From UHGV virus genome UHGV-0248752: DNA of 36,228 nucleotides; one strand, written 5' to 3'. Under the pieces are notes generated by a model. It saw nothing but the letters and a program-made list of their open reading frames with translations. It was not told the DNA's origin and did not search any database. Made by a program: the position numbers and the translations under genes. This DNA is from a virus. Below, piece after piece: positions 1 to 36,228 of this stretch. Numbering within the stretch: the stretch's first letter is position 1; each line of letters opens with the position of its first letter.

Positions 1-105
1 GCACGATGCTGGCTCCGCTGTCAAACTTACGCCAGTCCACGGTTGCTCCGCTTTCTTTAGCAAAGGTGTTGTCGGCCTGAGCCACTTTCGCCGGTTCGGC
101 TGAGG

Positions 106-295
106 TTTGATACGCCACGTGTAACCAGGTGAATCATTTGATACCGACAAGGGTTTTAGTGAAAGGAGGTGAAATCACCTGTAAGATGCTGAAATAAAAC
201 AGGTGATGTATACTTCGGACGGAAAACTCTTTTTGATACCGACTGCTCAACAAATAGTCAAAAGATCAAAAAACGGCGACACATTTGATACTGCT
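106..295. repeat. Cluster of four direct repeats TTTGATAC(C/G)(G/C)AC, candidate transposase-binding sites of the left end
   Basis: Copies at 106-118 (tttgatacgccac), 137-148 (tttgataccgac), 232-243 (tttgataccgac) and 284-295 (tttgatactgct), all same orientation. The first copy lies just inside a TG dinucleotide at 101-102. A 12-bp palindrome ggtgaaatcacc sits at 169-180. Confidence 0.45.
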
Positions 296-475
296 AATTT
301 ACCCTTAAAATCTTCTTCAAAACATCTTCAAACTGCCAAAATGCTCACATAATCGATCTAACTATAATCAGTATGATAATCATCATGAATTACTATTCAA
401 TAGCGTGATTATCTTGGGATGAGTCATATGATCTCTATATGTATTTACAGCACCACCTCATGATAGCGATGGCGC

Positions 476-1087
476 TTAACCAACAACATTTTTCTTTACT
501 GTCACTGCCCCTGATTCCTGGGTGGCGTTATTGCTCGAGTTGTACTTCTCAATAACGCGCAAAATCTCTTTGTCTGTTTCTTCACTTCCCGCCATTCCTA
601 TCTTTATTGCATTTTTTAGTACGGGACGTAATGGCAAGGCATCAATGATGCTTTCTACCGCATCCTGGCTGATTGTAGATGTATTCATTGCTGCCAGCCT
701 GACAAGGTTGTTAGTACCTTCTCGCCTGATGAATGTAAGGATTAATTGCTTCTCTTGGGGGCTTAGAGAGCTAAGCGCCTGATCAATACCCGAACCTGAA
801 TCGCAATTTTTTCCGATTTTTCCGCATTCATCTTCGTTCTTGCCTGTGGCCAACCAGTCGAGTGAACAATTACAGGCTTTAGCTATTAAGGCCAGTTTAT
901 CCAAAGGAGGGAAGTTTTTCCCCTTCCTGTAATTTCTTACTGTGGCTTCAGATAGTCCACAAAGGGTCGCCAGTTCGACGTTTGTCATGTTTCCCATAGC
1001 CATAGCTAAGCGTTCTGAAAATCGGTTTATTCCTTCCATATCAATAAACCGTTCCGCACTGGATACGGTTTTTTCTGCCTTATCCAT
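476..1087 (-). CDS. Prophage repressor (c-like) with N-terminal XRE-type helix-turn-helix
   Basis: 203-aa ORF transcribed divergently from ner/A/B at the left end. N-terminal segment TNVELATLCGLSEATVRNYRKGK fits an HTH_XRE motif. Position matches the Mu c repressor. Confidence 0.75.
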   Translation of the reverse strand: MDKAEKTVSSAERFIDMEGINRFSERLAMAMGNMTNVELATLCGLSEATVRNYRKGKNFPPLDKLALIAKACNCSLDWLATGKNEDECGKIGKNCDSGSGIDQALSSLSPQEKQLILTFIRREGTNNLVRLAAMNTSTISQDAVESIIDALPLRPVLKNAIKIGMAGSEETDKEILRVIEKYNSSNNATQESGAVTVKKNVVG

Positions 1088-1243
1088 ATAACCCCCTATA
1101 AAACAAAGAAATTATCGACATCGCATTTAATTTCGATATGCTCGCAAAAAACCGTTGATATCGAATTATTTTGCGATTATGATTTACCTAAATCGATAAC
1201 CGGTTTTGATTATCGGTTCAGGTAAACATGAGAGGATCACACA
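1088..1243. promoter_or_regulatory. Divergent early-promoter and operator region between repressor and ner
   Basis: 156-bp AT-rich gap with at least five copies of a TCGATA/TATCGA core, including a GATATC palindrome and CGATAA-N11-TTATCG. RBS gagagga lies just upstream of the ner ATG at 1244. Confidence 0.45.
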
Positions 1244-1510
1244 ATGAGGGTATCCAGACAAGCATCGAATAATTTGTTTGTTCGAGAGGGGTGTGACTGG
1301 TCTGCTAAAGCGGTATATGCAGCCCTTGAAAACAAAGGCACAGACCTCCCTGAACTGGAAAGGGAGTTAGGATTAAAAAGCGGATCAATGCGCAATGTGT
1401 TTTACCGCCAGTGCCGTAAATACGAAGCCGCCATCGCCGAAAAAATAGGGGTTGAACCTGCTGTAATCTGGCCCAGCAGATACCAGGTGGACGCCAGAGA
1501 AGTGGCTTGA
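1244..1510 (+). CDS. ner: Ner-like DNA-binding regulator (Ner/Nlp family)
   Basis: 88-aa product. C-terminal EPAVIWPSRYQ matches the conserved Ner motif PEVIWPSRYQ as I recall it. Sits immediately upstream of the transposase, as in Mu. Confidence 0.8.
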   Translation: MRVSRQASNNLFVREGCDWSAKAVYAALENKGTDLPELERELGLKSGSMRNVFYRQCRKYEAAIAEKIGVEPAVIWPSRYQVDAREVA

Positions 1511-1520
1511 TGGGGGATGT

Positions 1521-3611
1521 ATGTGGGTAACAGCAAAAGAATGTGTTGGTCTTCCTGATTTACCAATGATGGAACATAACATTCGCCATCGACTCACAAA
1601 AGCAGCTGCGGGAAATGCAGCCATGTTACGCAAACGTAAGGGGACAAAAGCAATCGAATTTAATATCGATTGTTTGCCTTCTGGCGCGCAACAAGTATTG
1701 CGTGAACGTTATGCCCTTCAACTGATGACGCAAAAAGCTGATGAATCACCGGCTCCGGTGGTGACAAAGGCCAGACGCTCATCTGCCGTGGTTGATGCGG
1801 TGGAGGCATATCGCGGATCACCACAACTGATGCTCGAACGCCTCAATGCCCTGACTGAAAACCAGCGCCAGGTGGCTGATGCACGAATCGCGATCGTCAG
1901 CGAAGTTCTGAAAGTCGCGCAACAACCTGGTTTCAGCTGTGCGAAGGCTATCCGGTTTATCGTTGACAACCTGGCACGTTCGCAACTGGACGAGCGCATT
2001 GTGGCAATGGTTGAGACGGCGAACGCCAAAAAGGGAAACAGCCGTGCGTTGAGTGAAATCACGCTGAAACGCTGGATTGCGGCCTTTAACAAGGCACAGA
2101 ACGCCGCTGAACGCCTGCTTTTACTGGCACCGGGTAAACGCCAGGAAATAAAAGCCGAAGATATTAACTGGCTGCCCGAATTTCTGGCGCAGTATCGCCA
2201 GTCAAACGGCCGACCAATGACCGAGGCTTACGAGGATTTTGTTGCTGAATGGCAGCACCGGCACGCTGATGAGCCTTATATGCTCGATATCATGCCCTCT
2301 TATGACACCATTCGCCGCGCAATGAAGAAACTGCCGGAAGTGGTGAAACAAAAAGGCCGGGTAACTGGCAGTGAATACCGTCAGCTTGAGGGATTCACGC
2401 GCCGCGACTGGTCCAGAATGCCGGTGAATTATGTCTGGATTGGTGACGGTCACGGCATGAAGCTGAAATGCGCGCACCCGGTTCACGGGCGGCCATTCGC
2501 ACCGGAAGTGACCTTTGTTATCGACGGTGGCACGCGCTTTGTGGTGGGCTGGAGCCTTGACCTGGCTGAAAATGTTTTCGCCGTAGCCGGTGCCATACAG
2601 CACGGTATTCGCCATCATGGCAAACCGTTTCTGTATTACTCGGATAATGGCTCCGGGGAAACCGCCGACGTCCTGGATAAGGAGATTGTGGGGATACTGC
2701 CACGACTGGGGATTAATCACCCGACAGGGATTGCCGGTAATCCGCAGGGACGGGGCATTATCGAACGGCTTAACCGCACATTACCGATGCGCATAGCCCG
2801 TAAATACCGCACCTATTTCGGGAAAGGAGCAGATCGCGAGACGTTACGTAAAACCAACCGCGATTTACGCTCGGCATTCAGTGCCCTGCAACAGGGCAAA
2901 CGGCTGAACGCCCGGCAGCAGTCAGCGATGCGTGATTTACCGTCCTGGTCTGAACTGATTGATGCCATTCGTGACGGTGTTGAGTGGTACAACAACCGGC
3001 CGCACGATGAATTACCCATGAAGCCGAACGGTAAACATTACAGCCCGGCGGAGTTCAGAAAAAAACGCCTGGCGGAAGAGGACACGGAAATTGAATGGCT
3101 GTCCGATGTTGAACTGCGGGATATGTTCCGGCCGATGGTGGAGCGCCCTGTAAGACGCTGTGAAATACGCTGGCTGAATAATATTTACTACGCGCCCGAG
3201 CTGCGTGACGAGCATGGCCGTAAGGTACTTATCAGCTATGACATTCATGATGCCGAACGAATTACCGTGCGCCGCCCGGATGGCAGCGTGATTTGCGAGG
3301 CGGTATGGGACGGCAATAAACGCGAAGCCTTCCCTGTCAGCGCGGAATACTACAAACAGCAGCAGCGCCTTAAAGGCATGCGTAAACGCGCAGAGGAAAA
3401 AATCCGTGATGCCGAGGATGAGGTTGTCAACGTGCTGGAGCACAAGCCGCAGGAGCCCTGGCTGGAAAACATATACCGCCCTGTGGGTAATACGGTGACC
3501 GTTCAGCAACCGGTCGCTGACGATGAACCTGATGAAGAATACGAGCGTAATTTCCAGCGGGGATTGCAACTGCTCGAAGCGAAATTAAAAGAAAGTGAGC
3601 CGCTGGCCTGA
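1521..3611 (+). CDS. A: MuA-like DDE transposase
   Basis: 696 aa. N-terminus WVTAKECVGLPDLP resembles MuA WVSPKECANLPGLP. Candidate DDE residues lie in WIGDGH, YSDNGS and IERLNRT. Position after ner. Confidence 0.93.
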   Translation: MWVTAKECVGLPDLPMMEHNIRHRLTKAAAGNAAMLRKRKGTKAIEFNIDCLPSGAQQVLRERYALQLMTQKADESPAPVVTKARRSSAVVDAVEAYRGSPQLMLERLNALTENQRQVADARIAIVSEVLKVAQQPGFSCAKAIRFIVDNLARSQLDERIVAMVETANAKKGNSRALSEITLKRWIAAFNKAQNAAERLLLLAPGKRQEIKAEDINWLPEFLAQYRQSNGRPMTEAYEDFVAEWQHRHADEPYMLDIMPSYDTIRRAMKKLPEVVKQKGRVTGSEYRQLEGFTRRDWSRMPVNYVWIGDGHGMKLKCAHPVHGRPFAPEVTFVIDGGTRFVVGWSLDLAENVFAVAGAIQHGIRHHGKPFLYYSDNGSGETADVLDKEIVGILPRLGINHPTGIAGNPQGRGIIERLNRTLPMRIARKYRTYFGKGADRETLRKTNRDLRSAFSALQQGKRLNARQQSAMRDLPSWSELIDAIRDGVEWYNNRPHDELPMKPNGKHYSPAEFRKKRLAEEDTEIEWLSDVELRDMFRPMVERPVRRCEIRWLNNIYYAPELRDEHGRKVLISYDIHDAERITVRRPDGSVICEAVWDGNKREAFPVSAEYYKQQQRLKGMRKRAEEKIRDAEDEVVNVLEHKPQEPWLENIYRPVGNTVTVQQPVADDEPDEEYERNFQRGLQLLEAKLKESEPLA

Positions 3612-3684: not shown

Positions 3685-4626
3685 GTGAATAATATGACCG
3701 ATATTAACGATGTAATCAAGACCATTGATGAACTTATTGATGGCGGCGTACTGACGCAGTATGCCATCGCCAGAGAGGCGGGAATTTCCGACGGCACATT
3801 ATCGGCTTTCCGTAAGGGAAAATATAAAGGCGATAACGCTGCTGTGGCTGCTTCCCTGCGCTCCTGGTATGAGAACTGGAATAAACAAAGCGCACTGCCG
3901 GAACCGCCGCAGTTTGTGGAAACTCAGACAGTCCAGGAGCTGCGCGCACTGTTTCAGGCGGTTCGCCTGATGGGCTGTATTAACGTTATTGTGGGCGTAC
4001 CGGGTGTGGGTAAAACGGCCACTGCCCGTAATTACTGCCAGGAGCAACCAAACACCTGGATGATCACCCTGTCACCCGCGCACTCCAGCGTCACGGAGTG
4101 TCTGCTGGAGCTGGCCGATGCGCTGGGGATTGATTACACCCGCGCGAACAAAGGGGCATTATCCCGCGCCATCCGCCGTCGCCTGACGGGAACGCGTGGA
4201 CTGGTGATTGTGGATGAGGCGGATCATCTTGGTATTGACGGTCTGGAGCAACTCCGGGCAATTCAGGACGCCACGGGGATCGGGATGGTGCTTATTGGTA
4301 ACCCGCGCGGATTGTTTAAAGGTGGACGCCGCGCCTTTGATGATTTATCGCGCCTGTTCAGCCGTCTTGCCCGTACAAAACAACTTCGCAAGGCCAAAAA
4401 GGCGGATGTGCTGGCCATTGCCAGGGCATGGGGTATCAGTGGTGAGGCCGAGCTGGCCGTCATGCAGGCTATCGCTGAAAAGCCGGGAGCATTACGTGTT
4501 CTGACACATACGCTTAACCAGGCGTGGCTCACCGCCAGCGGTGAAGGCGCGGCGCTGACAGAAAAACATATTAATGCGGCCTTTAAAGAGGTTTATACCA
4601 ACCCTGAATTACTCTCACAGGTGTGA
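3685..4626 (+). CDS. B: MuB-like transposition ATPase / target DNA activator
   Basis: 313 aa. Walker A GVPGVGKT and Walker B VIVDEADHL. Extended similarity to my recollection of MuB (DKYNGDN / LPEPPRFVETQTV / KPGALR). Position after A. Confidence 0.93.
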   Translation: MNNMTDINDVIKTIDELIDGGVLTQYAIAREAGISDGTLSAFRKGKYKGDNAAVAASLRSWYENWNKQSALPEPPQFVETQTVQELRALFQAVRLMGCINVIVGVPGVGKTATARNYCQEQPNTWMITLSPAHSSVTECLLELADALGIDYTRANKGALSRAIRRRLTGTRGLVIVDEADHLGIDGLEQLRAIQDATGIGMVLIGNPRGLFKGGRRAFDDLSRLFSRLARTKQLRKAKKADVLAIARAWGISGEAELAVMQAIAEKPGALRVLTHTLNQAWLTASGEGAALTEKHINAAFKEVYTNPELLSQV

Positions 4627-18267: not shown

Positions 18268-18388
18268 CGGTCAGTGGCGGGGGTCGAACCCGCATACATG
18301 ATCCACCCGGAGGCAGGCACCGACTTTACCAGTTAAGCGTACACTGACCGCCTGTTTATTTTATATTCATCCTTTATGCGGAGGCAAT

Positions 18389-18862
18389 ATGTCATCCATT
18401 GATGCCGCTGTCGTTGTTGACGTTACGCGTCTCCAGCGGGTGTTTGCCCGGCTTCAGTTTGTGGGCGGCGGAAAAGACCTGGCCCGCAGTGTGGCGGAGA
18501 GTCTTCTGTCATCGTCAGAAATGGCGTTTGAACAGGAAAAAGAGCCGGACGGCGAACGCTGGCATGACTGGTCAGATCCTTACCGCAAGTGGCGTACCCG
18601 TAAGGGATACACGCCCGGCAAAATCCTGACACTGAACGGCGATCTGGCCCGCCGCCTGACCACGGATTATGGCGATACCTGGGCGCTGATTGGATCAAAT
18701 GAACCTTATGCGGCCATTCATCAGTGGGGTGGCCTGCCTGGTATGCCACCGGGACCGGCGGCCATTGGCGCACGTCCGTATATGGGCTTTGATCAGGTGG
18801 CAGAACAGGAGATCATGGACGAAATCAGAAAACGCTTTAAAAAGGCCACAGAAACGCCGTAA
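18389..18862 (+). CDS. Virion morphogenesis protein (Mu G-like)
   Basis: 157 aa, located between the F-like gene and the protease/scaffold gene, as Mu G is. Confidence 0.65.
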   Translation: MSSIDAAVVVDVTRLQRVFARLQFVGGGKDLARSVAESLLSSSEMAFEQEKEPDGERWHDWSDPYRKWRTRKGYTPGKILTLNGDLARRLTTDYGDTWALIGSNEPYAAIHQWGGLPGMPPGPAAIGARPYMGFDQVAEQEIMDEIRKRFKKATETP

Positions 18863-20164: not shown

Positions 20165-21111
20165 TGCCTACCCCGATCACACCGGCGATGATCACCGCCC
20201 TGATGACGGGCTACCGTTCTGATTTTCAGGCCGGGATGTCCATGGCTCCGTCTCAGTACCAGAAAATTGCGATGACCGTACCGTCCACGTCGAAATCCAA
20301 CACCTACGGCTGGCTGGGGCAGTTCCCGCAGTTCCGTGAGTGGATCGGCTCCCGCGTCATCGAGAAGATGAAAGCCTATGGCTACGCCATCGTGAACAAA
20401 ACCTTTGAAGGCACCGTTGCCATTAGCCGCGATGACTTTGAAGACGACAATCTTGGCATCTACTCCCCGTTGTTCCAGGAGATGGGGCGCGCTGCGGCGG
20501 CACAACCGGATGAACTGGTCTTTGCTGCACTGCGTGATGGTCTGAATGCGGCCTGCTATGACGGCCAGAACTTCTTTGATACCGAACACCCTGTTTACCC
20601 CAAAGTGGATGGCTCCGGTGATGCACAGATGGTCAGCAATATGTTTGTGGCAAAAACCGGCTCTGTCGGTGCACAGGCGGATTACAGCGGCCCGGCCTGG
20701 TATCTGCTTGACTGCTCCCGCGCGGTAAAACCGCTGATTTATCAGGATCGCCGCAAGGCCGAACTGGTTGCCCAGACAAAAGTCGATGAAGGCCGTGCGT
20801 TTACTGATAACGAGTTTGTGTTCGGTGCTTCCGCCCGTCGCAATGTGGGCTACGGCTTCTGGCAGATGGCCTACATGATGCAGTCACCGCTGACGCTGGA
20901 TGCGCTGTGGCACGGCTGGTCAGCCATGCGTGACTTTAAGGCTGACGGTGGCCGCAAACTCGGCATCAAACCCACCCATATTGTTGTCCCCACCTCGCTG
21001 GAAAAACAGGCGGTGCAGCTGCTGGAGCGCGAGCTGTTCGCGGACGGTAACACCACCGTCTCTAACGAGATGAAGGGCAAGCTGGAGCTGGTTGTCGCGG
21101 ATTATCTGTAA
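20164..21111 (+). CDS. Major capsid protein (Mu T-like)
   Basis: 315 aa, start overlapping the protease stop. Size and position match the Mu major head subunit. Confidence 0.85.
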   Translation: MPTPITPAMITALMTGYRSDFQAGMSMAPSQYQKIAMTVPSTSKSNTYGWLGQFPQFREWIGSRVIEKMKAYGYAIVNKTFEGTVAISRDDFEDDNLGIYSPLFQEMGRAAAAQPDELVFAALRDGLNAACYDGQNFFDTEHPVYPKVDGSGDAQMVSNMFVAKTGSVGAQADYSGPAWYLLDCSRAVKPLIYQDRRKAELVAQTKVDEGRAFTDNEFVFGASARRNVGYGFWQMAYMMQSPLTLDALWHGWSAMRDFKADGGRKLGIKPTHIVVPTSLEKQAVQLLERELFADGNTTVSNEMKGKLELVVADYL

Positions 21112-34374: not shown

Positions 34375-34947
34375 ATGCTGATTGGGTATATCAGGGTGTC
34401 AACAAATGACCAGAATACGGCGCTACAAAGAAATGCGCTGGAATGTGCAGGATGTGAGCTGTTTTTCGAAGACAGAATAAGCGGTAAGACAAGGGAGCGT
34501 CCCGGACTTAAACGCGCATTAAAGCGACTCCGGCCAGGGGATACCCTGCTGGTCTGGAAACTGGATCGCCTTGGACGCAGTATGCAGCACCTTGTCCTTT
34601 TAACAGAAGAACTCCGGCAACGCGGCGTTAACTTCCGCAGCATTACGGACAATATTGATACATCCACTCCCATGGGACGTTTCTTTTTCCATATAATGGG
34701 CGCGCTGGCGGAAATGGAGCGGGAACTCATTATTGAACGTACACGCGCGGGTCTTGCTGCTGCCCGTGCTCAGGGGCGTCATGGCGGCAGACCTCAGAAA
34801 CTGACAGAGAAAGAGCGGGAGCAAATCGCCCGTTTGCTGGCTAATGGCGAGTCCCGTAAACAAATCGCACTGATATTTGATATTGGCCTTTCCACCCTTT
34901 ATCGTTATTTTCCTGCCTCACCAGCTCCGTCACCAAAAGTACCGTGA
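34375..34947 (+). CDS. gin: Gin/Pin/Cin-family serine DNA invertase
   Basis: 190 aa. Near-identical in long stretches to my recollection of Mu Gin: MLIGYIRVSTNDQNT, RPGLKRALKRL, WKLDRLGRSM, PMGRFFFHIMGALAEMERELIIERT. Catalytic Ser within VSTNDQ. Lies just outside the right crossover site. Confidence 0.95.
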   Translation: MLIGYIRVSTNDQNTALQRNALECAGCELFFEDRISGKTRERPGLKRALKRLRPGDTLLVWKLDRLGRSMQHLVLLTEELRQRGVNFRSITDNIDTSTPMGRFFFHIMGALAEMERELIIERTRAGLAAARAQGRHGGRPQKLTEKEREQIARLLANGESRKQIALIFDIGLSTLYRYFPASPAPSPKVP

Positions 34948-35032
34948 CGCTTTTTTGAATTTCCGCAAAACACATATTTTTCAGCGGTCGCTATTCTGAC
35001 TCTGTTTAATTCAGAAACAGGCAGAAAAGACG

Positions 35033-36228
35033 ATGTCAGACTCCAAGTGGAAAATGCTCTCCGCCATGCCCGGAGAGTTTTCAGTCAAGGTTGCCGGTGG
35101 CACGGTGGCATTTATTGAAAGCCCTTTCCGCCCTTCGGGTAATAAAGGGGGGATCACCTTCGCAGACTGCGTGATCCGCTTCAGCACGAAAGAGCCATTA
35201 TGGGTAATGCCGGTATCCGGTAATCCCAGTGCAGAAATCACCAGTTCAGGCGTGACTGGCATCATTCCAATCACATCTGACGTGGCCGGAACGCTCACGC
35301 CCTCCGACTGGAATGCACCGGATAACGCCGGGCCTTCCGGTAGCACGAATGGCAGCAGTTCAGAGCCGGAATATTACTTTGTTGTCATTCTCGCGGGTCA
35401 GTCAAATGGCATGGCCTACGGCGAGGGGCTGCCGTTACCGGATTCGTTTGACCGCCCGGACCCACGCATTAAGCAACTGGCACGCCGCAGTACGGTAACG
35501 CCCAACGGTACGTCGTGTACATACAACGACATCATTCCGGCAGACCACTGCCTGCATGATGTTCAGGATATGAGCGGGATAAACCACCCGAAAGCTGATC
35601 TGGCAAAAGGCCAGTACGGGACTGTCGGTCAGGGGTTGCATATTGCCAAAAAACTGCTTCCCTATATCCCACAGAATGCCGGGATACTTCTGGTGCCCTG
35701 TTGTCGTGGCGGGTCAGCATTCACCACTGGAGCCGACGGCTCATTCAGTGAGGCCAGCGGTGCTTCCGCTGATTCTTCACGCTGGGGGGCCGGTAAACCT
35801 CTGTATCAGGACCTGGTAAGCCGCACCAAAGTCGCGCTGGCGAAAAACCCGAAAAACAAACTTCTGGCTGTGGTCTGGATGCAGGGAGAGGCAGACCTTG
35901 CCTCAGGAAGCCAGCAGCATAATAGTTTATTCACGGCCATGGTTCAGCAGTTCAGAACTGACCTGGCTCCGCTTGCTGCGCAGTGCGTGAGTGGAAATGC
36001 CACCACGGTGCCGTGGATTTGCGGTGATACCACGTATTACTGGAAAAACGCTGGCACCGATAAATATGAGGCAGTATACGGTGGCTACAAAGGCAAGGAA
36101 GCACAGAAAATTTTCTTTGTACCGTTCCTGACGGATGAGAATGGACAGAGCACGCCAACGAATGCTCCGGCGGAAGACCCGGATATTGTGGCTGTCGGGT
36201 ATTACGGTGCAGCATCCCGAACCCAGGG
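35033..36228 (+). CDS. SASA/SGNH-type esterase-like protein (sialate O-acetylesterase-like cargo gene), 3' end truncated by the window
   Basis: Open frame from the ATG at 35033 to the window end with no stop; absent from the ORF track for that reason. After a roughly 110-aa N-terminal domain comes YYFVVILAGQSNGMAYGEG, the GQSN block typical of DUF303/SASA esterases such as prophage NanS-like enzymes. Confidence 0.65.
   Translation, partial: MSDSKWKMLSAMPGEFSVKVAGGTVAFIESPFRPSGNKGGITFADCVIRFSTKEPLWVMPVSGNPSAEITSSGVTGIIPITSDVAGTLTPSDWNAPDNAGPSGSTNGSSSEPEYYFVVILAGQSNGMAYGEGLPLPDSFDRPDPRIKQLARRSTVTPNGTSCTYNDIIPADHCLHDVQDMSGINHPKADLAKGQYGTVGQGLHIAKKLLPYIPQNAGILLVPCCRGGSAFTTGADGSFSEASGASADSSRWGAGKPLYQDLVSRTKVALAKNPKNKLLAVVWMQGEADLASGSQQHNSLFTAMVQQFRTDLAPLAAQCVSGNATTVPWICGDTTYYWKNAGTDKYEAVYGGYKGKEAQKIFFVPFLTDENGQSTPTNAPAEDPDIVAVGYYGAASRTQ

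What the first reader, a model, noticed from the sequence alone, without database searches (positions are those of the whole stretch)
101..300. Prophage left end with four direct repeats as candidate transposase-binding sites; host junction near position 101
Four same-orientation copies of TTTGATAC(C/G)(G/C)AC lie at 106-118, 137-148, 232-243 and 284-295, with spacing analogous to Mu L1-L3. The first lies just inside a TG at 101-102. Bases 1-100 have higher GC and are probably host DNA. The exact end cannot be fixed without the right end or an uninterrupted host allele.
Basis: partly seen in the sequence, partly recalled or inferred. Interest (0 to 1): 0.45.

Follow-up and report, generated by a model that had tools for sequence, protein, structure and literature searches.

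The report
Left end of Mu-like prophage
This is the ordinary left end of a known kind of transposing (Mu-like, Sp18-family) prophage sitting inside the E. coli tauA gene: three of the four repeats are its transposase docking sites, the fourth is a chance match in host DNA, and the true junction is at 119/120, not 101.

Summary
The four TTTGATAC copies are real and far too clustered for chance.

- **Junction.** Bases 1-119 are E. coli tauA, 100% identical to thousands of genomes. The intact allele diverges exactly after 119.
- **Left end.** The prophage starts at T120 (5'-TGTAACCAGG...). Ten other insertions, all in different flanking DNA, start with the same base.
- **Copy 1 (106-118)** is therefore host DNA and a coincidence.
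- **Copies at 137, 232 and 284** are genuine. Their cores begin 18, 113 and 165 nt from the end, like Mu L1-L3.
- **Right end.** A metagenome contig carrying the right junction of an insertion at this same tauA site shows three inverted copies at 18, 40 and 75 nt from the terminus.
- **Conservation.** The core and the 18-nt offset hold in Sp18 and in Klebsiella and Yersinia phages, whose transposases are only 58-79% identical. They also hold across different immunity regions.
- **Target duplication.** It is 4 bp (CACG here; 4 bp in 8 of 8 informative insertions), not Mu's 5 bp. The right terminus ends TA, not CA.

A published paper already states that Sp18 has six putative transposase-binding sites. 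This is a known feature of low interest.

The parts
1..119 (-). Host DNA: the 5' part of E. coli tauA (taurine ABC transporter substrate-binding protein). The prophage interrupts the gene about 80 nt into its coding sequence.
   Evidence: Bases 1-119 are 100% identical to tauA in thousands of E. coli genomes. The uninterrupted allele L003 continues ...CCACG|GTGACGTTCACC.
106..118 (+). It is a chance match inside tauA and not part of the prophage.
   Evidence: The same bases are present in phage-free tauA alleles. There are no exact TTTGATAC copies in 1900 nt of flanks from ten other insertions.
116..119 (.). Left copy of the 4-bp target-site duplication, CACG.
   Evidence: Right-junction contig L016 reads ...GCCGCGCTATA|CACG|GTGACGTTCACC. 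The intact host has a single CACG. Seven other clean insertions also show 4-bp duplications.
120..136 (+). Prophage left terminus, 5'-TGTAACCAGGTGAATCA. It contains the terminal TG (120-121) where the transposase would cleave, plus the 17-nt segment before the L1 core.
   Evidence: Ten other insertions, all in different flanking DNA, have the same first base. Homology with relatives starts at 118-120.
137..148 (+). L1, the terminal transposase-binding site (TTTGATACCGAC). The core starts at nt 18 from the end.
   Evidence: The core starts at nt 18 from both termini in four phages.
149..231 (.). L1-L2 spacer. It holds a perfect 9-nt inverted repeat, ATCACCTGT (174-182) / ACAGGTGAT (199-207). 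Its function is unknown: possibly packaging or an architectural role.
   Evidence: It is 97% identical to Sp18 over nt 1-90 of the end.
232..243 (+). L2 transposase-binding site (TTTGATACCGAC). The core starts at nt 113 from the end.
   Evidence: The core is an identical island in DNA that is otherwise 55% identical to Sp18.
284..295 (+). L3 transposase-binding site (TTTGATACTGCT). The core starts at nt 165 from the end.
   Evidence: Similarity to heteroimmune relatives ends at about 294.
476..1087 (-). CI-type HTH repressor. It belongs to an immunity region different from that of Sp18.
   Evidence: Pfam Phage_CI_repr / HTH_3. No homologue is found in Sp18 by tblastn, and window 210-1686 has no megablast match to Sp18.
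1244..1510 (+). Ner-like small DNA-binding protein.
   Evidence: Pfam HTH_35. It is 37.5% identical to Mu Ner by tblastn.
1521..3611 (+). Transposase (A protein, 696 aa), the protein inferred to bind L1-L3 and R1-R3.
   Evidence: Pfam Mu-transpos_C and HTH_Tnp_Mu_1. It aligns end to end with MuA at 22.6% identity, E 4.5e-13. The inferred catalytic residues D309, D375 and E415 are present. It is 93% identical to the Sp18 transposase.
3685..4626 (+). MuB-like AAA+ target-DNA activator.
   Evidence: Pfam Phage-MuB_C and AAA_22. It is 48% identical to MuB.

Best explanation
Window 120-~295 is attL, the left end of an Sp18-family Mu-like transposable prophage of about 39.3 kb. The prophage is inserted about 80 nt into the E. 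coli tauA coding sequence.

The three same-orientation sites are L1 (137), L2 (232) and L3 (284), with core TTTGATAC. They are the docking sites for the phage's own 696-aa DDE transposase. Three inverted copies sit at the right end, with cores 18, 40 and 75 nt from that terminus.

By analogy with Mu, transposase subunits bound at the six sites pair the two ends into a transpososome. They nick the 3' ends at the termini (5'-TG at the left, TA-3' at the right). With the MuB-like ATPase choosing the target, they join the ends to target DNA with a 4-bp stagger, which leaves the CACG duplication seen here.

**Shown:** the junction, the termini, the six-site layout, its conservation, the 4-bp duplication, and the many different insertion sites.

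**Inferred:** that the transposase is the protein that binds these sites, and the order of the reaction steps.

The copy at 106-118 is host sequence and plays no part.
For: **Junction.** Host identity runs 1-119 and the intact allele diverges at 120.

**Left terminus.** Ten other insertions, all in different flanking DNA, start TGTAACCAGG. Homology in 34 genomes begins at 118-120, next to different host genes.

**Right end.** Relatives, and contig L016 from an insertion at the same tauA site, carry GTATCAAA three times, ending ...GCCGCGCTATA.

**Site table.**
- The core is invariant in 22 of 24 sites across four phages.
- L1 and R1 cores start at nt 18 from the terminus in all four.
- R2 is at 40, a 22-bp step, as between Mu R1 and R2.
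- R3 is at 74/75.

**Conservation against background.** Versus Sp18, the L2 and L3 cores are 16/16 identical and in the same register. Surrounding bases are 55% identical, and DNA beyond nt 180 is 29% identical.

**Link to the transposase.** The sites track the transposase (93% identical to Sp18; 79% and 58% in the Yersinia and Klebsiella phages), not the repressor, which has no Sp18 homologue.

**Transposition genes.** The transposase is a full-length MuA homologue with a DDE triad. The neighbouring protein is 48% identical to MuB.

**Target duplication.** 4-bp duplications flank 8 of 8 informative insertions.

**Literature.** PMC2628397 states that Mu, FluMu, Pnm1 and Sp18 each have six putative transposase-binding sites.
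Against: - No binding experiment exists for this transposase. The assignment rests on architecture, conservation and analogy.
- The site sequence is unrelated to the MuA site. Mu ends have no TTTGATAC, and these ends have no CGAAA-type sites.
- The transposase is only 22.6% identical to MuA. A single-sequence search of solved structures retrieved retroviral integrase cores, not MuA.
- R3 is in direct orientation here but inverted in Mu.
- The right terminus is TA rather than the canonical CA, and the duplication is 4 bp, not 5. Details of the Mu mechanism may therefore not transfer exactly.
- The right end is not in the window. L016 is 99.1% identical to the window over the shared 2 kb and may come from a sister strain rather than the same genome.
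Confidence: 0.86

Rival explanations
1. One reading: the phage ends at the TG at 101-102, and four transposase sites, including 106-118, make up the left end.
For: All four copies share the 8-nt core in one orientation. A TG does occur at 101-102.
Against: Bases 101-119, including the 106-118 copy, are present unchanged in phage-free tauA alleles of thousands of genomes. All other insertions of this phage start at TGTAACC and have unrelated sequence upstream. The CACG duplication abuts 120.
Confidence: 0.01
2. The TTTGATAC repeats are operators for the phage repressor or the Ner-like regulator, not transposase sites.
For: They lie within 350 nt of the repressor gene. Phage regulators commonly bind short repeated motifs.
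Against: The same motif occurs three times, inverted, at the far right end, at an identical 18-nt offset from the terminus. The motif is unchanged between this phage and Sp18, although the repressor has no detectable Sp18 homologue and the Ner-like proteins are only 39% identical. No copy lies in the repressor-ner intergenic region, 1088-1243.
Confidence: 0.04
3. The repeats are packaging (pac) or host architectural-protein sites rather than transposase sites.
For: From memory, Mu packaging starts from the left end and its pac site lies near L1. Host bending proteins act in the Mu L1-L2 spacer.
Against: A pac signal is needed at one end only, yet the motif is mirrored at both ends at equal distance. 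The motif follows the transposase lineage. The Yersinia phage keeps it although its L1-L2 spacer resembles that of Mu.
Confidence: 0.03
4. The host TTTGATAC at 106-113 is not pure coincidence: a pseudo-site in the target attracted or stabilised this insertion.
For: The prior chance of an exact same-orientation 8-mer within 31 nt of the junction is about 5e-4.
Against: There are no exact copies in 1900 nt of flanks from ten other insertions. The motif was chosen after the fact. By analogy with Mu target immunity, which I state from general knowledge, transposase-bound sites should repel rather than attract insertion.
Confidence: 0.05

Closest known systems
[quoted passage not shown]
   Same: - Same termini (TGTAACC... 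...GCGCTATA) and the same six TTTGATAC sites at the same offsets.
- 97% identity over the first 90 nt of the end, 93% identical transposase and 94% identical early region.
- 4-bp duplication (TAAA in Sakai).
- The literature calls these Mu-like, transposing to variable sites, with six putative transposase sites.
   Different: - The immunity region (window 210-1686: repressor and Ner-like gene) is unrelated or only distantly related to that of Sp18.
- The tail region is only 76-82% identical.
- The insertion site is tauA rather than sorM.
Phage Mu attL / attR (MuA sites L1-L3 and R1-R3)
   Same: - Three sites per end, inverted between the ends.
- A terminal site close to the end, a roughly 95-105-bp gap to L2, and L3 40-52 bp further on.
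- An R1-R2 step of exactly 22 bp.
- Adjacent repressor, ner, A and B genes.
- The B protein is 48% identical, and late genes are 65-72% identical at DNA level.
   Different: - Unrelated site sequence: TTTGATAC versus the CGAAA-containing Mu sites.
- Transposase only 22.6% identical.
- R3 is direct rather than inverted.
- Right terminus TA rather than CA.
- 4-bp rather than 5-bp duplication.
- CI-type repressor rather than a Mu c-type repressor.
Yersinia phage vB_YpM_5 and Klebsiella phage Kp4866-3
   Same: - Transposases 79% and 58% identical.
- The same TTTGATAC core, with L1 and R1 at nt 18, R2 at 40 and R3 at 74-75.
- Right terminus ending TA.
   Different: - L2 and L3 positions differ (88-122 and 130-164).
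- Their L1-L2 spacer resembles the Mu spacer, unlike the window's.
- The exact Yersinia left terminus is uncertain, because the record is a circularised assembly.
Other transposable phages whose target duplication is not 5 bp (Pseudomonas B3, Leptospira prophages: 6 bp)
   Same: They show that duplication length varies among Mu-like phages (PMC8705779).
   Different: Those are 6 bp. The Sp18 group gives 4 bp in every informative case here.

Membership tests
Mu-like transposable phages (Sp18 group) | The same element is inserted at many unrelated chromosomal sites | tested here: met
   34 E. coli genomes carry the left end next to different host genes. 226 genomes carry a match covering at least 80% of the 501-nt right-end query. 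Sequenced junctions lie in yghD, cho, glrR, siiEA, sorM, other prophages and tauA.
Mu-like transposable phages (Sp18 group) | A DDE transposase homologous to MuA, followed by a MuB-like AAA+ protein, next to a repressor/ner switch at the left end | tested here: met
   Pfam Mu-transpos_C, HTH_Tnp_Mu_1, Phage-MuB_C and HTH_35. Full-length alignment to MuA, E 4.5e-13, and 48% identity to MuB. D309, D375 and E415 are present.
Mu-like transposable phages (Sp18 group) | Several subterminal repeats in one orientation at the left end, with inverted copies at the right end | tested here: met
   L1-L3 are in the window. R1-R3 are in L016 from the same insertion site and in Sp18, LC727895 and four other E. 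coli relatives whose right ends were read. The offsets are conserved in four phages.
Mu-like transposable phages (Sp18 group) | Near-identity of the ends to Sp18 itself | tested here: met
   87/90 identical over nt 1-90 of the end, and identical L2 and L3 cores in the same register.
Phage Mu proper (Muvirus mu att sites) | 5-bp target-site duplication | tested here: not met
   The duplication is 4 bp in 8 of 8 informative insertions and never 5 bp.
Phage Mu proper (Muvirus mu att sites) | Terminal 5'-TG ... CA-3' | tested here: not met
   The left terminus is TG (120-121). The right terminus is ...CTATA-3'. Homology stops at that A in many genomes, and the duplication abuts it.
Phage Mu proper (Muvirus mu att sites) | Sites match the MuA end-site sequence (CGAAA-containing 22-mers) | tested here: not met
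   Mu ends carry CGAAA at 22/127/167 and 22/44/57 and have no TTTGATAC. The sites here share the core TTTGATAC instead and do not carry CGAAA (site table).
Transposase end-binding sites (functional class) | The element's transposase binds the repeats directly | not testable with these tools
   This needs a gel-shift (EMSA) or footprinting experiment, or a mini-element assay.

The most novel reading that the evidence does not exclude
The Sp18 group of E. coli, Klebsiella and Yersinia transposable phages may use a variant of Mu-type chemistry that has not been described explicitly. It would combine a 4-bp staggered target cut (Mu 5 bp, B3 6 bp) with asymmetric termini, 5'-TG at the left and TA-3' at the right. 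That would imply a different active-site spacing in the transpososome and tolerance of a non-CA cleaved end. The sequence pattern itself looks solid: 8 of 8 insertions, and the TA terminus is conserved in three genera. What is uncertain is whether this is already recorded in literature I could not read, such as Morgan et al. 2002, and whether the TA end is cleaved like a CA end.
Probability: 0.35. Interest if true: 0.35.

Novelty: already known. Interest (0 to 1): 0.15.

Why it matters
It matters little beyond correct annotation.

- It fixes the prophage boundary to the base (119/120).
- It shows that tauA is disrupted by a transposing phage.

The Sp18-type ends were already reported to have six putative transposase sites. 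The 4-bp duplication and the TA right terminus are useful practical rules for delimiting Sp18-like prophages, which are common in Shiga-toxin-producing E. coli. They would also be a small point of interest for people who study how DDE transposases set the target stagger.

Tried and rejected
- **Right-junction scan of species-representative genomes:** no hit. The same pattern in metagenome contigs gave one hit, which I used.
- **Insertions that gave no duplication:** L004 and L006 have non-matching flanks, probably because of rearrangement between phage copies. L011 lacks the right end.
- **Single-sequence search of solved structures with the transposase:** it returned only retroviral integrase cores, not MuA. 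NCBIfam gave only sub-threshold IS3/IS481 matches. Homology to MuA rests on Pfam and direct BLASTP.
- **MAFFT placement of the third catalytic residue:** unreliable. E415 was taken from the integrase alignment instead.
- **Literature searches:** nothing for the motif or for a 4-bp duplication in Mu-like phages. The SuMu paper says nothing about ends. One review id was not held. I could not verify the position of Mu pac from the papers read.
- **RNA searches:** ARAGORN and Rfam found nothing in the window.
- **Rejected explanations:** repressor operators, a pac signal, chance, and target attraction by the host pseudo-site. See the rival explanations.

Full report
**1. The observation**

The 8-mer TTTGATAC occurs on the + strand at 106, 137, 232 and 284. 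The only other copy in the 36,228-nt window is at 20575, and there are none on the - strand. Shuffles predict about one copy per window. The expected number in the 186-nt stretch is about 0.005, so P(>=3) is about 2e-8.

The copy at 106 needs an extra base, and the copy at 284 diverges after the core. No additional copies with up to 1 mismatch exist in bases 1-1300.

**2. Where the host ends**

Bases 1-119 are 100% identical to the tauA gene of thousands of E. coli genomes, and the match stops at 119. An uninterrupted allele (L003) reads ...GGTTTGATACGCCACG|GTGACGTTCACC. The window reads ...GGTTTGATACGCCACG|TGTAACCAGG.

The junction is 119/120, not 101.

Ten other insertions of the same phage, all in different flanking DNA, start with TGTAACCAGGTGAATCATTTGATACC directly after unrelated host sequence. 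They lie in yghD, cho, glrR, siiEA, sorM, other prophages and a plasmid-borne locus. In 34 complete genomes the homology starts at 118-120. The terminal TG is at 120-121.

**3. What the element is**

Downstream lie four genes:
- a CI-type repressor (476-1087, - strand);
- a Ner-like gene (1244-1510);
- a 696-aa transposase with Pfam Mu-transpos_C and HTH_Tnp_Mu_1;
- a MuB-like AAA+ protein.

The transposase aligns end to end with MuA, but at only 22.6% identity (E 4.5e-13). The B protein is 48% identical to MuB, and head and tail genes are 65-72% identical to Mu at DNA level. Catalytic residues D309, D375 and E415 are inferred from alignments to MuA and to ASV integrase.

The closest named relative is prophage Sp18 of O157:H7 Sakai. 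The first 90 nt of the end are 97% identical, the transposase is 93% identical and the early region 94%. Window 210-1686, the immunity region, has no megablast match to Sp18, and the repressor has no detectable Sp18 homologue. Published work describes Sp18-like phages as Mu-like elements found at variable sites in Shiga-toxin-producing E. coli.

**4. The right end**

The window stops about 3.2 kb short of the right end. Relatives end ...TTAGTATCAAATAAG...GCGGTATCAAATGAAATGCAAATCGGTATCAAAAAAATCGCCGCGCTATA-3'. Homology stops at that final A in many genomes.

A metagenome contig (L016, OGUN01005267.1) carries the right junction of an insertion at exactly this tauA position...GCCGCGCTATA|CACG|GTGACGTTCACCGCC. 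It is 99.1% identical to window 34171-36228, and its invertible segment is in the other orientation. Read from the right terminus, its TTTGATAC cores start at nt 18, 40 and 75.

**5. Site architecture and conservation**

| Phage | L1 | L2 | L3 | R1 | R2 | R3 |
|---|---|---|---|---|---|---|
| Window / AST198 | 18 | 113 | 165 | 18 | 40 | 75 |
| Sp18-type LC727895 | 18 | 113 | 165 | 18 | 40 | 75 |
| Klebsiella Kp4866-3 | 18 | 88 | 130 | 18 | 40 | 74 |
| Yersinia vB_YpM_5 | 18 | 122 | 164 | 18 | 40 | 75 |

Positions are the first base of the core, counted from the nearer terminus. The window's R positions are taken from the near-identical relative AST198. The Klebsiella transposase is 58% identical to the window's and the Yersinia one 79%. 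The core is invariant in 22 of 24 sites, and all sites at one end are in direct orientation.

Against Sp18, the L2 and L3 cores are 16/16 identical and in the same register. The surrounding 74 bases are 55% identical, and DNA beyond nt 180 is at random level, 29%. The cores are thus conserved islands, and similarity between heteroimmune relatives ends just after L3.

The motif is unchanged where the repressor is replaced, so it tracks the transposase and not the immunity system.

**6. Comparison with Mu, tested directly on NC_000929**

The conserved CGAAA of the Mu sites lies at 22, 127 and 167 at the left end. At the right end it lies at 22 and 44, with an inverted copy at 57.

The layout matches well: a terminal site, a long gap to L2, a short gap to L3, and a 22-bp R1-R2 step. 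Four things do not match:
- the site sequence is unrelated;
- R3 is direct here;
- the right terminus is TA rather than CA;
- the target duplication is 4 bp.

The 4-bp duplications are CGGG, CACC, AGAG, AGAG, CGTA, CACC and TAAA in seven other clean insertions, and CACG here. None can be read as 5 bp. The GenBank record LC727895 also annotates a 4-bp duplication. Literature gives 5 bp for Mu and 6 bp for B3 and the Leptospira prophages. I found no paper mentioning 4 bp for this group.

**7. Mechanism**

- **Shown:** the exact ends, the six mirrored sites at fixed offsets, many different insertion sites, the 4-bp duplication, and an apparently intact MuA-like and MuB-like gene pair.
- **Inferred by analogy with Mu:** transposase subunits bind L1-L3 and R1-R3, pair the ends, nick the 3' termini, and transfer them with a 4-bp stagger into a target selected with the B protein.

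I put about 0.86 on the three repeats being transposase end-binding sites. Rivals are disfavoured by the mirror symmetry at both ends and by the co-variation with the transposase:
- repressor or Ner operators;
- a pac or architectural site;
- attraction of the insertion by the host pseudo-site.

**8. The host copy**

An exact same-orientation 8-mer within 31 nt of the junction has a prior of about 5e-4. The motif was chosen after the fact, and 1900 nt of flanks from ten other insertions contain no exact copy. I treat it as coincidence.

**9. Novelty**

The KS10 paper (PMC2628397) states that Mu, FluMu, Pnm1 and Sp18 each have six putative transposase-binding sites. The feature is thus already known, and this is another copy of a common prophage family with a swapped immunity region.

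The finding is ordinary. Its value is a corrected boundary and site count. The 4-bp duplication and the TG/TA termini are the only mildly unusual points.

Noticed in passing
window 116-119; L016 6056-6059; loci L002, L005, L007, L010, L012, L013, L015: The target-site duplication of Sp18-type phages is 4 bp (CACG, CGGG, CACC, AGAG, AGAG, CGTA, CACC, TAAA) in 8 of 8 informative insertions, not the 5 bp of Mu. I found no paper that says so.
   Followed up: yes
L016 6045-6055; L002, L015, L008 and L009 right ends: The right terminus ends ...GCGCTATA-3' (TA, not the canonical CA), while the left terminus is 5'-TG. The TA end is conserved in E. coli, Klebsiella (…CGCGCTATA) and Yersinia (…GCGCTTTA) relatives.
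   Followed up: partly
window 106-113: Host tauA happens to contain an exact, same-orientation TTTGATAC that ends 6 nt before the insertion point (prior chance about 5e-4). Ten other insertions show no such flank motif.
   Followed up: yes
window 149-231 (inverted repeat 174-182 / 199-207; CAGGTGA also at 126-132): The L1-L2 spacer holds a perfect 9-nt inverted repeat, ATCACCTGT/ACAGGTGAT, and repeated AGGTGA words. In the Yersinia and Klebsiella relatives the spacer instead resembles the Mu L1-L2 spacer (CCGGGAGGA..TGGAT..CGGGAT.TGATGGGAT). From memory, that is where Mu pac lies. This suggests the spacer follows the packaging module while the sites follow the transposase.
   Followed up: partly
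window 210-1686: The immunity region (CI-type repressor and Ner-like gene) has no megablast match to Sp18, although both flanks are 94-97% identical. This looks like a heteroimmune variant made by module exchange, with the breakpoint between L1 and L2.
   Followed up: partly
window 32962-33906 versus L016 1-944; recombinase ORF at 34375-34947: The tail-fibre segment is inverted between the window and the metagenome contig from the same insertion site. That is consistent with an active Gin-like invertible host-range segment.
   Followed up: no
window 20575-20586: The only other TTTGATAC in the window lies in frame (codons F-D-T-E) in the major head gene. It is conserved at the same place in Sp18 and in the Yersinia and Klebsiella phages. 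This is most likely a coding constraint, not a transposase site.
   Followed up: partly
L004 and L006 (flanks); L011 (right end): Some relatives have non-matching left and right flanks, and one sits on a 167-kb 'plasmid' between chromosomal genes. Another has lost mom and the right end. These look like phage-mediated rearrangements or deletions.
   Followed up: no
relatives at about locus 18.3 kb (e.g. L011 18223-18302); window about 18270-18390: RefSeq annotates an 80-nt 'tRNA-OTHER' between the head genes of several relatives. ARAGORN and Rfam find no tRNA or RNA family anywhere in the window.
   Followed up: partly
L009 4654-4732: The Yersinia phage vB_YpM_5 record is a circularised assembly. 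About 79 nt of unrelated DNA lie between its right and left ends, so its exact left terminus (TA or TG) is uncertain.
   Followed up: no
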